The notes below the pieces were generated by a model. The model did not search any database and had not been told where the DNA came from. It saw nothing but the letters and a program-made list of their open reading frames with translations. From an uncultured bacterium (GTDB lineage: Bacteria; Acidobacteriota; Thermoanaerobaculia; Multivoradales; J023), in the NCBI GenBank assembly GCA_965371445.1, contig CBDUYN010000022.1, forward strand, positions 19,482-83,481: 64,000 nt of DNA, in the 5' to 3' direction. Position numbers and translations under genes: made by a program. Shown here piece by piece: positions 35,101-42,296 of this stretch. Position 1 is the stretch's first letter, and each line of letters starts with the position of its first letter.

Positions 35101-35312
35101 CGGAGTATCATGACAAGGTCTTCGGCCTCTTCGAGCGGCTCGACACGCAAACCGAAGGCACGGGCATCGGCCTCGCCATCGTCAAACGGATCGTCGAGTT
35201 CCACGGCGGCCGCATTTGGGTCGAGTCCGAGGGGCTGAGACGTGGCAGCACCTTTTGTTTTACACTTCCCTGCAAATGCGCACCTACGTCGCGTCCACCT
35301 CTGGAGACTTGA
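32175..35312 (+). CDS. Sensor histidine kinase with periplasmic two-component-regulator propeller (Reg_prop) and Y_Y_Y domains, a TM helix, HisKA and HATPase_c
   Basis: Repeated DG.LW.GT..GL..F/L propeller motifs. Y_Y_Y-like TFRYRLVEHDPDWVEVGARRTAYYTKVPPGTYRFEV. TM helix ILWFQISAALAAVGLIVLGFTV. H-box FTYTVSHDLKAPL and ATPase motifs DNGVGI, GTGIGLAIV. Start may be 32217 (MISSRP...). The 3' end overlaps the next gene by 47 nt. Confidence 0.85.
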   Translation: MFDRGVASAGSRKEMISSRPKRKPWHRSAGAGLLAALLWTAPGRAIDPEKSLDQLVHKSWTTADGLPQNAVLDIVQTCDGYLWLATFGGLARFDGQKFTVFDVAASPGLRSNRITALHEDADGVLWLGSERGFVCRREDERFDCLGVADGLPRGVVWSLLEDLDGALWIATSNGLARLAEGRIRTFSESDGLRGATEALVLDRQDNLWVGTAGGLARWRGDRFELRQIPSLFGHATPHAAVADPRGDLWVTMHHGVLKLHDGEMQVIVEPPPSGMSFGDILHDRDGNLWFTNHGVGRFRAGSLVDDGERLLQDGRLEVRVLYEDGEGNIWIGTSSHGLHLLRDGIFSSHLHPMGSAGGGILESASGEVVFGTFCQGVHLLAGKDMSRIDRPESGLGCVNSLLEDRRGRLWAGGGVLGLREGNSWTRFTATDGAFVRSPVRALFEDRRGVVWVGADQGLASFADGRFTPYTSSDGLKIDDVRLITEDSRGNLWLAGPYGLMRFAGAEIAPRSARHFTVSDGLPHNFVRAVYEDASGGLWIGTYGGGMAYLDPDGDVFTTLTRAHGLPENAVSSIVEDDAGNFWMSGNRGITRLRRAEAEAFVRGETDRVHAVLYDEVDGMIPSETSGGFQPAAWKARDGRIWYPTIRGVAVVDPAKLRLGAPPPVAVERVRVGRREVEARSTVIVPPGDWDLEIEYTGLQLGLPAETRFRYRLVEHDPDWVEVGARRTAYYTKVPPGTYRFEVTAAAYAGGPWNEGPATFDIVFRPFLYQILWFQISAALAAVGLIVLGFTVHIRGLRRHARELASTIAELEAKNAEMERFTYTVSHDLKAPLVTIQGFSGMLRKDARAGNPKRVDDDIERIQAAGAQMGRLLDDLLELSRIGRLMSTPQEVPLSEVAREARELVTGRLGSVEVEIAGDLPTVLGDRPRLVEVFQNLFENAARFMGDEVEPRIVVGHRRDAEETVVYVRDNGVGIAPEYHDKVFGLFERLDTQTEGTGIGLAIVKRIVEFHGGRIWVESEGLRRGSTFCFTLPCKCAPTSRPPLET

Positions 35313-41400: not shown

Positions 41401-42296
41401 CCTTCGACCAGCTCTCCGGGCGGCCGTGGCGCCACCTCCCGATGGAGCCGCGCGAGCTCGCTCGGCGACCGGGCCTCGAATGCCGGCCGCCCGGTCACCA
41501 GCTCGTAGAGCACCAGCCCGAACGCGTAGAGGTCACTCTTGACCGAAGCCTCGCCGGCCTGGTGCTCCGGCGCCATGTACGCCGGGGTGCCGCCGAGGGC
41601 GTCGGCTCCGGCCACCGCGGCGAGCCCGAAGTCGGCGAGGCGCACCCGCCCCGTGTCGTCGATCATCACGTTGGCCGGCTTCAGGTCATGATGCAGGATG
41701 CCCTCGGCGTGGACCGCGGCCAGGCCCTCGGCCAGCTGCCGGCCGATCGTCACCACCCGGTCTTCGGGCAGTCGGCCGAGGCGCCGCAAGAGCCCGGCCA
41801 GGTCCTCGCCGGCGACGTGCTCCATCGACAGGAAGTGCCGTCCGCCGGCCTTGCCGACATCGTAGACCCGGCAGACGTTGGGATGGCCAATGGCCCTGGC
41901 GATGCGCACCTCGTCGAGCAGTAGCGCCAGTCTCGCGGGGTTGTCCCGGGCCGCTTCCGGCAGGAATTTCAGCGCCACCGTCTGGCCCAGCTTGAGGTCT
42001 TCGGCGCGGTAGACCTCGCCCATGCCGCCGCGGCCGAGGAGGCCCGCGACGCGGTAACGCCCGGCCAGGATCGTTCCGGCAGCCAGGCCGCCGGCCGGGC
42101 TTTCGAGAGTCCTGGCCAGACCCTCGTGGCCGGTGGAGGTGTCGTCCTGGTCGTAGGCGAGCAGCGAGAGGACCTCACGGCGCAGCTCGTCGTCGTCGCC
42201 ACAGGCCCGGTCGACGAACCCGCGGCGCTCAGGCACCGGCCGCTCGCGGGCCGCCAGGAAGAGCTCCTTGATCAGCGGGTTACGCTCCTCGCTCAT
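38445..42296 (-). CDS. Multidomain signalling protein: N-terminal Hanks-type Ser/Thr protein kinase, the same P-loop NTPase, single TM helix, C-terminal FGE-sulfatase (SUMF1-like) domain; paralog of 35266-38434
   Basis: Kinase motifs [34 protein letters not shown], APE. NTPase [28 protein letters not shown]...[24 protein letters not shown] and [33 protein letters not shown]. FGE domain [17 protein letters not shown]...[40 protein letters not shown]...[23 protein letters not shown]...[12 protein letters not shown]. The ATG overlaps the sigma-factor stop (ATGA). Confidence 0.85.
   Translation of the reverse strand: [1283 protein letters not shown]

What the first reader, a model, noticed from the sequence alone, without database searches (positions are those of the whole stretch)
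35266..42296. Tail-to-tail paralogous giant proteins: N-terminal effector, P-loop NTPase, TM helix, then FGE-sulfatase, with swapped N-terminal domains (DUF4062/TIR-like vs Ser/Thr kinase)
The two convergent genes (35266-38434 on + and 38445-42296 on -, stops 10 nt apart) share a central Walker-A/B NTPase (ILGLYAPSGAGKSSLL vs [16 protein letters not shown]), a single predicted TM helix and a C-terminal FGE-sulfatase/SUMF1 domain. The FGE domains are near-identical across long stretches ([10 protein letters not shown].GPW...[27 protein letters not shown]...[15 protein letters not shown].DW). The N-terminus differs: a DUF4062-like, TIR-related module in one and a Hanks kinase in the other. The TM helix places the FGE domain outside the membrane and the NTPase and effector inside. 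Swapping an effector on a conserved NTPase-plus-sensor chassis is the signature of STAND/NLR-like conflict or signalling systems. FGE domains have been proposed as ligand-sensing modules in such systems. This exact membrane-spanning combination is, to my knowledge, undescribed.
Basis: partly seen in the sequence, partly recalled or inferred. Interest (0 to 1): 0.88.

Follow-up and report, generated by a model that had tools for sequence, protein, structure and literature searches.

The report
Paired membrane-spanning STAND receptors, Acidobacteria
Two back-to-back genes encode related, NLR-like ATPase receptors that appear to span the membrane with a lectin-like sensor outside and different outputs inside (an NAD-cleaving domain or a protein kinase wired to a sigma factor). 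This is a conserved paired variant of a bacterial "conflict system" class that was predicted earlier but never tested.

Summary
A (35276-38434, +) is DUF4062 + nSTAND1 NTPase + hydrophobic helix + helical domain + FGE-sulfatase fold. B (38445-42296, -) has the same chassis behind a Hanks kinase. The two share 54% identity over about 930 aa.

The class "effector + nSTAND1 + FGE/FGS sensor" was described by Kaur et al. in 2021, as an intracellular sensor.

What I did not find in the literature I could search:
- A transmembrane helix lies between NTPase and sensor. It is conserved in 206 of 229 relatives, and 97% of 135 members examined obey the positive-inside rule.
- The convergent pair is the conserved unit, seen in about 22 of 26 informative loci, all in Acidobacteriota. 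The DUF4062 partner is constant. The other partner carries a kinase, TIR, Mrr nuclease, wHTH or cyclase domain.
- A short N-terminal "leader", on either partner, coincides with an adjacent kinase-type ECF sigma factor.
- The FGE domain lacks the catalytic cysteines and ends in a hypervariable segment. In a TM-less relative, a diversity-generating retroelement mutates exactly that segment.

No function has been tested. I rate this a new variant of a known kind, of moderate to high interest.

The parts
35276..38434 (+). Gene A: DUF4062 - nSTAND1 - TM - helical domain - FGE-like domain (1052 aa). This is the constant partner of the pair.
   Evidence: ORF; Pfam; aligns end to end with 90 homologues; AF2 mean pLDDT 91.4.
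35285..35545 (+). DUF4062/NIR, a TIR-like NADase domain (aa 4-90). W85-E86 is nearly invariant; E86 is the candidate catalytic glutamate.
   Evidence: Pfam PF13271, 32.4 bits against a cut-off of 24.7; conservation; NADase activity and catalytic Glu of DUF4062 from preprints.
35789..37240 (+). STAND NTPase module of A (aa 172-655): PYPxLLPY motif, Walker A GxGKS (K231), Walker B D303-Q304, helical and winged-helix domains.
37319..37375 (+). Predicted transmembrane helix of A (aa 682-700, WGIAAAVVTLVILGAWSWA), with an Arg-rich cytoplasmic flank.
   Evidence: KD 1.75; lies within the continuous AF2 helix 657-715 and has low pLDDT; family-wide hydrophobicity and positive-inside bias.
37376..37753 (+). 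Family-specific helical domain of A (aa 701-826), predicted periplasmic, followed by a Pro-rich linker.
37784..38413 (+). FGE-sulfatase / C-type-lectin-fold domain of A (aa 837-1046). The catalytic Cys pair is absent. A family-specific CX4C sits at aa 926-931 (38051-38068). The hypervariable segment after RGG runs about aa 1015-1041 (38318-38398).
38445..42296 (-). Gene B: leader - Hanks kinase - nSTAND1 - TM - helical domain - FGE-like domain (1283 aa). This is the variable-output partner.
   Evidence: ORF; Pfam; BLASTP against A.
42132..42296 (-). N-terminal 'leader' of B (aa 1-55), a helical segment that co-occurs with an adjacent ECF sigma factor gene.
   Evidence: Leader alignment; co-occurrence with sigma in the window, L001, L002, L020 and L029 and in two unrelated contigs.
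41328..42056 (-). Hanks Ser/Thr kinase domain of B (aa 81-323). G-loop, VALK Lys, [8 protein letters not shown], DFG and APE motifs are all present.
   Evidence: Pfam Pkinase 158.9 bits; motif alignment of 22 B-type kinases.
39657..41204 (-). STAND NTPase module of B (about aa 365-880).
   Evidence: Pfam nSTAND1 74 bits, AAA_16 35.5 bits; alignment A1.
39525..39581 (-). Predicted transmembrane helix of B (aa 906-924, [19 protein letters not shown]).
   Evidence: KD 1.77, preceded by [11 protein letters not shown].
38469..39101 (-). FGE-like domain of B (aa 1066-1276). No catalytic Cys pair; same CX4C as A.
   Evidence: Pfam 137.8 bits.
42293..42976 (-). ECF sigma factor of the kinase-associated type. 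Its stop codon overlaps the ATG of gene B by 4 nt.
   Evidence: Pfam Sigma70_ECF 186 bits; TIGR02999 214 bits against a cut-off of 126. Region 2.2 reads GHTLQPTALVHEAY, so DxxD is replaced by QPTA, the ECF43 hallmark described in PMC13147305.

Best explanation
The locus encodes a two-gene receptor system, plus a sigma factor, built from two paralogous single-pass membrane proteins of the nSTAND1 family of STAND (NLR-like) NTPases.

Shown by sequence and model:
- Each protein has a cytoplasmic output domain at the N-terminus, then a Walker A/B STAND module, a long helix that becomes a single hydrophobic transmembrane segment, a family-specific helical domain, and a C-terminal FGE/C-type-lectin-fold domain.
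- That FGE domain cannot be a formylglycine-generating enzyme, because the catalytic Cys pair is missing.
- Its last ~30 residues are hypervariable.
- Partner A always carries DUF4062, a TIR-like NADase domain, with its candidate catalytic Glu conserved.
- Partner B carries an intact Hanks kinase here. In other genomes it carries TIR, Mrr nuclease, OmpR-type wHTH or nucleotide cyclase domains instead.

Inferred mechanism:
- The lectin-like domain sits in the periplasm and binds an extracytoplasmic ligand through its hypervariable C-terminal surface.
- Binding is relayed through the single helix, by promoting or releasing NTP-dependent oligomerisation of the STAND modules in the plane of the membrane, probably as A/B hetero-oligomers.
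- Clustering then switches on the N-terminal domains. On A this means NAD+ hydrolysis. On B it means kinase trans-autophosphorylation, followed by phosphorylation of the co-encoded ECF sigma factor, which docks on the N-terminal leader. The result would be a transcriptional response.
- The system would therefore pair a regulatory alarm arm with a metabolic, growth-arrest arm. That fits a counter-invader or counter-competitor sensor best, but it could also serve envelope or environment signalling.
For: Domains.
Paralogy.

Transmembrane helix:
- KD of at least 1.6 in 206 of 229 relatives.
- N-flank K+R 7.2 against C-flank 3.2 per 15 aa, with N greater than C in 97% of 135 members.
- One continuous AF2 helix 657-715, with low pLDDT only in the hydrophobic part.

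FGE domain is a binding module, not an enzyme:
- No Cys where human FGE has C336/C341.
- The segment after RGG is 21-26% identical where the core is 53-56%.
- In the TM-less relative L024 a DGR targets this same segment. All 14 of 14 mismatches are adenine-specific, with an RVT_1 reverse transcriptase and a bAvd-like gene alongside.

The pair is the unit:
- Convergent A/B pairs occur in about 22 of 26 informative loci.
- The two chassis lineages separate in a tree, and every alternative N-terminus falls in the B lineage.
- No other neighbouring gene is conserved.

Coupling to sigma, and A-B cooperation:
- The leader co-occurs with an adjacent PF07638 sigma gene, whether the leader is on B (window, L020) or on A (L001, L002), in which case the kinase is on the other partner.
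- Two unrelated leader ORFs also sit directly after such a sigma gene.
- Phosphorylation of ECF43 sigmas by their cognate Hanks kinases is experimentally established for EcfK/PknS and EcfP/PknT (PMC13147305).

DUF4062 NADase activity, and its use as an Avs effector: preprints.
Kinase motifs intact.
Against: - Nothing has been tested experimentally for any member, and all homologues come from uncultured MAGs.
- Topology rests on hydropathy, charge bias and a monomer model. No dedicated predictor or reporter fusion was available.
- Four distant relatives lack the hydrophobic helix yet keep the 'periplasmic' helical domain, so that domain is not intrinsically extracytoplasmic.
- A-B interaction is inferred only from gene order and from where the leader and kinase sit. 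No co-folding was possible.
- The window locus lies among housekeeping genes, not in a defence island. There are no PADLOC hits beyond the generic kinase domain, and no copies on plasmids or phages.
- wHTH, cyclase, kinase and sigma outputs are equally typical of ordinary signal transduction.
- The ligand is unknown.
- The equivalence of E86 to the published catalytic Glu rests on position in the Pfam domain, not on a structural superposition.
Confidence: 0.55

Rival explanations
1. The pair is an ordinary transmembrane signal-transduction system with no immune or conflict role. It would sense an envelope or environmental cue, such as a glycan or cell-wall fragment, and regulate genes through kinase/ECF sigma, wHTH or cNMP outputs. 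The DUF4062 partner would act as a modulator, or make an NAD-derived signal, rather than a suicide effector.
For: - Chromosomal housekeeping context, with no defence genes nearby.
- No PADLOC match and none on plasmids or phages.
- B-lineage outputs include OmpR-type wHTH, class III cyclase and kinase + ECF sigma.
- ECF43-type sigma/kinase pairs are known regulators, for example of T6SS in Xanthomonas.
Against: - The constant partner carries DUF4062. Its characterised bacterial versions are NAD+-depleting antiphage effectors.
- B-lineage alternatives also include TIR and Mrr nuclease domains.
- Multi-copy expansion per genome, a hypervariable ligand surface, and a DGR-diversified sister form are the pattern of diversifying recognition, not of a fixed physiological ligand.
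Confidence: 0.3
2. The hydrophobic segment is not a membrane helix. The proteins would then be fully cytoplasmic members of the intracellular nSTAND1-FGS conflict systems described by Kaur et al. 2021.
For: - That paper treats FGS as an intracellular invader sensor.
- TM-less relatives with the same helical + FGE module exist (L024, L027, P0172, P0175).
- AF2 gives low confidence for the segment.
Against: - Hydrophobicity is conserved in 206 of 229 proteins while the sequence is not.
- The positive-inside asymmetry is strong, holding in 97% of members.
- The 19-mers contain 0.64 charged residues on average.
- Low pLDDT of an isolated TM helix inside a long continuous helix is what a monomer model without a membrane would be expected to give.
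- A CX4C pair is conserved only in the C-terminal domain, which fits a disulfide in an oxidising compartment.
Confidence: 0.08
3. The two genes are independent duplicates that merely sit next to each other. Each would be a self-sufficient single-gene receptor, like Avs or bNACHT proteins.
For: - Each protein has a complete effector-NTPase-sensor layout.
- Characterised antiviral STANDs act as single genes.
- The hypervariable segments of partners are unrelated, 21% identical, so they probably bind different ligands.
Against: - The convergent arrangement is kept in about 22 of 26 informative loci across several acidobacterial classes, always as one A-lineage gene plus one B-lineage gene.
- In L001 and L002 the sigma-linked leader is on the DUF4062 protein while the kinase is on its partner.
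Confidence: 0.2
4. The FGE-like domain is an enzyme, a periplasmic oxidase or maturase like FGE, EgtB or PvdO, rather than a sensor.
For: - Sequence similarity to SUMF1, EgtB and PvdO.
- Some sources name the homologues 'SUMF1/EgtB/PvdO family nonheme iron enzyme'.
- A conserved CX4C motif has the same spacing as the FGE copper-binding pair.
Against: - The Cys pair is missing at the catalytic position in all 131 family domains examined.
- All NCBIfam enzyme models score far below their cut-offs, for example EgtB 61.6 against 360.
- The best structural matches are non-catalytic binders: TvpA, PorK and pFGE.
- The region that forms the FGE active site is the hypervariable one.
Confidence: 0.05

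Closest known systems
STAND NTPase-FGS (FGE-sulfatase) conflict systems, nSTAND1 clade (Kaur, Iyer, Burroughs & Aravind, eLife 2021, PMC8195603)
   Same: - N-terminal effector (TIR, S/T/Y kinase and others) + nSTAND1 NTPase + C-terminal FGE/C-type-lectin-fold sensor.
- Several differently armed copies per genome.
- Association with DGRs, seen here in the relative L024.
   Different: - Described as intracellular sensors. I found no transmembrane helix between NTPase and FGS in that paper's main text.
- No obligatory convergent pair with a constant DUF4062 partner.
- No ECF sigma or leader link.
- DUF4062 is not mentioned there.
- The window locus has no DGR.
DGR-diversified STAND-CLec 'antigen sensors' (Dore et al., PNAS 2024, PMC10907252)
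   Same: - Duplicated target genes, each with nSTAND1 or NACHT plus one FGE-type CLec domain.
- The variable region is at the C-terminal end of the fold.
- L024 is a bona fide example within this protein family.
   Different: - The window pair and the other 47 FGE gene 3' ends tested, besides the L024 target, have no template repeat nearby. No reverse transcriptase was found in any other locus held, window included.
- Variation here is between lineages, not somatic.
- In that paper the NTPase and CLec domain are predicted on the same side of the membrane. Here they are on opposite sides.
ECF43-type sigma factor / Hanks kinase modules (EcfP-PknT of Vibrio parahaemolyticus; EcfK-PknS of Xanthomonas citri, PMC13147305)
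   Same: - A sigma gene directly upstream of, and overlapping, a transmembrane receptor kinase gene.
- The kinase has an N-terminal helical extension before the catalytic domain.
- Sigma region 2.2 has lost its acidic DxxD residues and carries a Thr (QPTA).
   Different: - The kinase here is fused to a STAND NTPase and an FGE-like sensor.
- It is paired with an NADase-bearing paralogue.
- In some genomes the sigma-linked leader sits on the non-kinase partner.
- Formal ECF group assignment was not done.
Avs / antiviral STAND proteins with a DUF4062 (NIR) effector, e.g. PsAvs2 (preprint 10.64898/2026.09.04.749371)
   Same: N-terminal DUF4062 NADase + STAND NTPase + C-terminal sensor. Activation by oligomerisation is expected.
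   Different: - Avs proteins are soluble, act as single genes, have TPR-like sensors and bind cytoplasmic phage proteins.
- This family has a different STAND clade (nSTAND1), a membrane span, a lectin-fold sensor and a partner gene.
Single-pass bacterial receptors (PknB-type kinases, ToxR/CadC) and animal Toll-like receptors
   Same: N-in/C-out or equivalent topology, with an outside sensor and an inside kinase, wHTH or TIR-type output. Signalling is presumably by ligand-driven clustering.
   Different: None of these has a STAND NTPase between the membrane and the output domain. The resemblance is in logic only, with no homology beyond the individual domains.

Membership tests
nSTAND1 (Pfam PF20703), STAND NTPases | Match to the family model above the curated cut-off | tested here: met
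   A scores 57.0 bits and B 74.0 bits against a cut-off of 27.1. Only model positions 1-170 of 379 align, so the helical half is divergent.
nSTAND1 (Pfam PF20703), STAND NTPases | Intact Walker A (GxxGxGK[ST]) and Walker B acidic residue | tested here: met
   G228, G230, K231, S233 and D303-Q304 are invariant in 91 sequences and in both lineages.
nSTAND1 (Pfam PF20703), STAND NTPases | NBD + helical + winged-helix fold like other STAND/ORC-Cdc6 ATPases | tested here: met
nSTAND1 (Pfam PF20703), STAND NTPases | NTP-dependent oligomerisation on ligand sensing | not testable with these tools
   Needs biochemistry or cryo-EM.
Formylglycine-generating enzyme (true FGE/SUMF1) | FGE-sulfatase fold | tested here: met
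   PF03781 scores 136.6 and 137.8 bits. Foldseek to human FGE gives E 3e-14.
Formylglycine-generating enzyme (true FGE/SUMF1) | Catalytic or copper-binding Cys pair (human C336/C341) after the RGGS motif | tested here: not met
   A reads RGGGASDPAEWIV and B reads [13 protein letters not shown]. No column in that region reaches the >5-Cys reporting threshold across 131 family domains. The position of the human Cys pair is from my own knowledge of the FGE literature.
DUF4062 / NIR TIR-like NADases | Match to PF13271 above the cut-off | tested here: met
   32.4 bits against 24.7 for gene A. The match is 53.5 bits in the relative L024.
DUF4062 / NIR TIR-like NADases | Conserved catalytic glutamate (E97 KpSwz, E108 PsAvs2, E98 Vulcan) | tested here: inconclusive
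   W85-E86 is nearly invariant in 91 A-type proteins and lies at the end of the Pfam domain. Equivalence to the published Glu was not checked by superposition, because no reference sequence was held.
DUF4062 / NIR TIR-like NADases | NAD+ hydrolysis | not testable with these tools
   Enzymology needed.
Hanks-type Ser/Thr kinases | Pkinase fold with G-loop, beta3 Lys, catalytic HxD..N, DFG and APE motifs | tested here: met
   Pkinase 158.9 bits. All motifs are present in 22 B-type proteins. Window B reads HHD where most read HRD.
Kinase-regulated ECF sigma factors (ECF43-like) | ECF sigma of the PF07638/TIGR02999 type, co-encoded with a Hanks kinase | tested here: met
   186 bits for PF07638, and 214 bits against a cut-off of 126 for TIGR02999. 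There is a 4-nt overlap with the kinase gene.
Kinase-regulated ECF sigma factors (ECF43-like) | Loss of acidic DxxD in region 2.2, with a phosphorylatable Thr (consensus QTTA) | tested here: met
   GHTLQPTALVHEAY in the window, L001 and one L029 sigma. The second L029 sigma reads VTLQPTSLVHEAY, L002 has QATA, and L020 differs. The criterion is from PMC13147305.
Kinase-regulated ECF sigma factors (ECF43-like) | Assignment to group ECF43 with the ECF classification models; phosphorylation by the kinase | not tested
   The ECF group HMMs were not available. Phosphorylation needs experiment.
DGR target (diversity-generating retroelement) | Template repeat with adenine-specific differences, plus a reverse transcriptase nearby | tested here: not met
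   No third copy of either FGE 3' end in the 64-kb window. No homologue of the L024 RT in the window. The test is met only in the relative L024. A DGR acting from elsewhere in the genome cannot be excluded.
Catalogued anti-phage defence systems (PADLOC-DB v2) | Match of the proteins to a system model | tested here: not met
   A has no hit. B hits only through its kinase domain (PD-T4-6, mad6, PglW).

The most novel reading that the evidence does not exclude
This is a heteromeric, membrane-spanning NLR-like receptor: a bacterial hybrid of NLR and Toll-like-receptor logic. Two paralogous STAND proteins would present different hypervariable lectin-fold surfaces to the periplasm. On sensing an extracytoplasmic threat they would co-oligomerise and split the signal. 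One branch would be a kinase-to-ECF-sigma (or wHTH, cNMP) transcriptional alarm. The other would be a DUF4062 NAD+-depletion execution arm. The family would have evolved from cytoplasmic, DGR-diversified nSTAND1-FGS sensors by gaining a transmembrane helix.
Probability: 0.3. Interest if true: 0.82.

Novelty: new variant of a known kind. Interest (0 to 1): 0.62.

Why it matters
All characterised STAND/NLR receptors, in bacteria, plants and animals, sense ligands in the same compartment as their NTPase. The sensor folds back onto the nucleotide-binding domain to keep it off.

A family with one transmembrane helix between the two would have to gate STAND oligomerisation across a membrane. That would extend NLR-type surveillance to the periplasm or cell surface.

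The conserved pairing is a layout not reported for bacterial STANDs in the literature I could search. It combines a constant NADase partner, a partner whose output domain is exchangeable, and an optional kinase-regulated sigma factor. It recalls the sensor/helper NLR pairs of plants.

It also offers a testable link between Hanks-kinase/ECF-sigma signalling and NAD+-depleting effectors. The TM-less, DGR-diversified relative independently marks the C-terminal segment of the FGE fold as the recognition surface.

The main limitation is that the family is confined to uncultured Acidobacteriota and nothing has been tested.

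Tried and rejected
1. DGR in the window. I searched for a template repeat of either FGE 3' end and for an RT homologue. Neither was found.
2. True FGE enzyme. Rejected because the Cys pair is absent and enzyme-family scores are far below cut-off.
3. Gene conversion, or a shared ligand between partners. Within-pair identity of the FGE core (52.6%) equals cross-genome A-B identity (52.5%). The hypervariable segments are unrelated at 21%. The window pair is only slightly more similar than average (62% in an earlier 13-pair comparison whose mean was 50.6%).
4. A third conserved gene. Clustering all flanking ORFs from the 38 loci held, window included (those with a family gene), found only the sigma factor and generic stand-alone kinases.
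6. Mobile-element or defence-island context. No hit on plasmids or phages, none in PADLOC beyond the kinase domain, and housekeeping neighbours.
7. Identifying the source organism. The exact-sequence look-ups gave no name or contig. Taxonomy is inferred from homologues only.
8. A literature search for transmembrane STAND receptors returned only noise.
9. The leader profile search returned only short ORFs, because of how candidates are picked. I used it only to sample two genomic contexts.
10. The 250-aa insert between kinase and NTPase in many B-type proteins has no Pfam hit. I suspected a possible divergent cyclase but did not resolve it.

Full report
**1. What is in the window**

Two long convergent ORFs occupy 35.2-42.3 kb. 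Gene A ends at 38434 as stated. The ATG at 35276 gives a 1052-aa protein that aligns from its first residue with 90 homologues. The stop codons are 10 nt apart.

BLASTP of A against B gives 54% identity over about 930 residues (A 172-1050, B 365-1280), E = 0. The FGE-coding DNA is 77% identical over 510 nt.

**2. Domains**

All Pfam matches are above the curated cut-offs.
- A: DUF4062 (aa 4-90), nSTAND1 (188-352), FGE-sulfatase (837-1046).
- B: Pkinase (81-323), nSTAND1 (380-562), FGE-sulfatase (1066-1276).

Walker A (GxGKS) and Walker B (D-Q) residues are invariant in both lineages. The kinase keeps all its catalytic motifs, although window B reads HHD where most relatives read HRD.

The alignment to human FGE stops at RVKKGG, which corresponds to RVGRGG in A. 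The stretch that carries the catalytic Cys pair in FGE has no cysteine in A or B. No column in that stretch reached the >5-Cys reporting threshold across the 131 family domains. So this is an FGE fold, not an FGE.

Two family features stand out. A CX4C motif (A C926/C931) is conserved in 127-128 of 131 domains. The ~30 residues after RGG are hypervariable.

**3. The membrane span**

Each protein has one strongly hydrophobic 19-mer at the same place: A 682-700 and B 906-924, both with KD about 1.75. Each follows an Arg-rich cluster.

Across 229 proteins that carry the chassis, 206 have KD of at least 1.6 at that position and 17 more have 1.2-1.6. In 135 aligned members the 15 residues before the segment hold 7.2 K+R on average, against 3.2 after it. 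The N-side is more basic in 97%. The sequence of the segment is not conserved; its hydrophobicity is.

In the AF2 model the segment is the middle of one continuous helix, 657-715. Apart from one loop, it is the only low-confidence stretch.

I take this as good, though not experimental, evidence for an N-in/C-out single-pass protein. The output domain and NTPase would be cytoplasmic. The helical domain and FGE fold would be outside.

**4. The family and the pair**

The chassis finds about 200 protein clusters at 47-68% identity over its full length. In species-representative genomes it finds 28 loci. Most are labelled Acidobacteriota, Thermoanaerobaculia, Holophagales or Polarisedimenticolia, and several carry only generic labels. 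Several loci occur per genome, and one 12.18-Mb assembly holds at least five paralogues.

I annotated all fetched loci with local HMMs. The tail-to-tail pair seen in the window is the conserved unit.
- 15 loci hold two complete, adjacent or overlapping convergent genes.
- 5 more have a partner cut by the contig end.
- 2 have a 3-4 kb spacer.
- Together that is about 22 of 26 loci whose 3' flank is informative.

No other neighbouring gene is conserved.

In a neighbour-joining tree of the chassis, all 18 kinase-type proteins fall in one clade of 28. That clade also contains every alternative N-terminus: TIR_2, Mrr_cat nuclease, OmpR-type Trans_reg_C and class III cyclase-like domains. All other sequences with an intact N-terminus are DUF4062-type, apart from one without an identifiable N-terminal domain. 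Each of those alternative forms sits convergent to a DUF4062-type partner.

So the system is one constant NADase-domain partner plus one partner with an exchangeable output. Identity between orthologues (A-A 57%, B-B 59% in the STAND part) exceeds A-B identity (53%). The duplication is therefore old and the two lineages are inherited together.

**5. The sigma factor and the leader**

Upstream of gene B, overlapping its ATG by 4 nt, lies an ECF sigma factor gene (42293-42976, minus strand). It scores 186 bits on Sigma70_ECF and 214 bits on TIGR02999. Its region 2.2 reads GHTLQPTALVHEAY, so the usual acidic DxxD is replaced by QPTA. That is the hallmark given for ECF43 sigma factors, which are activated by direct phosphorylation by their cognate Hanks kinase (EcfK/PknS, EcfP/PknT; PMC13147305).

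Gene B begins with a ~55-aa helical leader before the kinase. PknS has a comparable 83-aa extension of unknown role.

Within the family the leader occurs only where such a sigma gene is adjacent.
- On the kinase partner: the window and L020.
- On the DUF4062 partner: L001 and L002, where the kinase is on the other gene.
- L029 has a sigma gene beside the pair and a divergent leader-like N-terminus on its kinase partner.

Pairs without a leader have no adjacent sigma gene.

Two unrelated leader-bearing ORFs, sampled from a profile search, also lie directly downstream of a PF07638 sigma gene.

I infer that the leader couples the receptor to the sigma factor. Its presence on the non-kinase partner argues that A and B work together. 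Both points are inferences from gene order.

**6. A DGR-bearing relative**

In L024, from a Thermoanaerobaculia MAG, a more distant DUF4062-nSTAND1-FGE gene (46% identity) lacks the hydrophobic segment. The last 144 nt of its FGE domain are 90% identical to a nearby repeat. All 14 differences are A in the repeat against a non-A base in the gene. A reverse transcriptase (RVT_1, 39.6 bits) and a bAvd-like ORF lie beside it, and a SIR2/TIR + nSTAND1-FGE second gene follows.

This is a diversity-generating retroelement. Its variable region is exactly the segment that is hypervariable across the whole family. That segment is 21-26% identical where the FGE core is 53-56%, both within pairs and between orthologues.

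The DGR marks the segment as the ligand-binding surface. It also ties the window family to the DGR-diversified STAND-CLec sensors of Kaur et al. 2021 and Dore et al. 2024. The window itself has no template repeat and no RT. None of the other 47 FGE 3' ends tested has a template repeat within the DNA held.

**7. How it most likely works**

Shown: the domain order, the intact catalytic and NTP-binding motifs, the conserved hydrophobic span with its charge bias, the non-catalytic FGE fold with a hypervariable tip, the conserved pairing, and the leader-sigma association.

Inferred:
- The lectin-fold domain binds an extracytoplasmic ligand.
- The signal crosses the membrane by changing the oligomeric state of the STAND modules, probably in A/B hetero-oligomers.
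- Clustering activates the N-terminal domains. On A this means NAD+ hydrolysis by DUF4062, whose bacterial homologues are oligomerisation-activated NADases in antiphage defence. On B it means kinase autophosphorylation and phosphorylation of the leader-docked sigma factor.

I give the overall account 0.55. The 'what it is' part I hold above 0.85. The immune-type purpose and the heteromeric mechanism I put at about 0.3-0.4.

The main rival is plain signal transduction (0.3). It is favoured by the housekeeping context, the lack of PADLOC, plasmid or phage links and the regulatory outputs. It is disfavoured by the constant NADase partner, the TIR and Mrr alternatives, the paralogue expansion and the DGR-diversified sister form.

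**8. Comparison with what is known, and novelty**

The class effector + nSTAND1 + FGS is published (PMC8195603). That includes kinase and TIR effectors and multiple copies per genome. FGE-sulfatase sensors also appear in the 2026 survey of prokaryotic STANDs (PMC13581612). Kinase-FGE fusions, ECF43/kinase modules and DUF4062 effectors on Avs proteins are all known too.

I did not find the following in the searchable literature:
- a transmembrane helix between the STAND NTPase and its sensor;
- the obligatory convergent pair with a constant DUF4062 partner and a variable partner;
- the wiring of a STAND receptor to a kinase-regulated ECF sigma factor through a leader that can sit on either partner.

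The library is incomplete, and supplementary architecture tables were not checked.

Verdict: a real feature and a new variant of a known kind. Interest is 0.62.

Noticed in passing
L024:4403-12511 (Thermoanaerobaculia MAG, DASWIG010000040.1): A complete diversity-generating retroelement. The VR is at about 7265-7408 in a TM-less DUF4062-nSTAND1-FGE gene and the TR at about 8817-8960 (-), with 14 of 14 mismatches adenine-specific. The RT is 7662-8684 (-). A bAvd-like ORF lies upstream of the TR. A SIR2/TIR ORF (9791-10639) and a second nSTAND1-FGE gene follow.
   Followed up: yes
window 42293-42976 (-) and 42132-42296 (-): An ECF sigma factor gene overlaps the start of the kinase gene. The ~55-aa N-terminal leader of the kinase protein recurs on DUF4062-type partners in other genomes, always with a sigma gene adjacent. 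It also recurs on short ORFs directly after PF07638 sigma genes in unrelated contigs (L038, L039).
   Followed up: partly
window 38051-38068 (+), and the equivalent position in gene B: A CX4C motif (RAGCAFLYCKRDG) is conserved in 127-128 of 131 family FGE domains. It has the same spacing as the FGE copper-binding pair but sits in a different loop. It could be a disulfide or a metal site. Its position relative to the ligand surface could not be measured, because model coordinates are not returned.
   Followed up: partly
window ~43090-44758 (+) and 44755-46578 (+): Two paralogous ORFs have signal-peptide-like N-termini (MRFHRMLTVILVAILLAAAP..., MKIHRMLTVILFPILLAAPL...). They carry HETGH and HQVGH motifs and have no Pfam hit. 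They are transcribed divergently from the sigma factor gene and may be secreted zincin-like proteins in the sigma regulon. The association is not conserved in other loci.
   Followed up: partly
window 32175-35312 (+): A Reg_prop/Y_Y_Y beta-propeller histidine kinase (1045 aa) ends 37 nt inside gene A on the same strand, so the two may be co-transcribed. This neighbour is not conserved in other loci.
   Followed up: partly
window 36001-42000: G+C is 73-74% across the two genes, against about 65-68% in most of the window. This could reflect Ala/Arg/Gly/Pro-rich proteins or foreign origin.
   Followed up: no
L003:13291-17616, L009:12862-17262, L015:12723-17177 (kinase-type partners): Many B-type proteins carry an extra ~250-aa region between kinase and NTPase with no Pfam match. 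P0099 shows a kinase followed by a class III cyclase-like segment in that position, so the insert may be a divergent cyclase.
   Followed up: partly
window 41660-41690 region (gene B kinase catalytic loop): Window B has HHDLKPAN (a non-RD kinase), whereas most family kinases have HRD. Others have HGD, HLD or HCD.
   Followed up: no
window 11701-15441 (-), 7609-9552 (+), 47881-49824 (+): Large ORFs (1246, 647 and 647 aa) have no Pfam match at E <= 0.001. In this high-GC DNA some may not be real genes.
   Followed up: no
L001, L035, L037 and others (junction of the two genes): The convergent partners often overlap at their 3' ends or are only 3-80 nt apart, which leaves no room for a terminator between them. 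Read-through antisense transcription into the partner's FGE region is conceivable.
   Followed up: no
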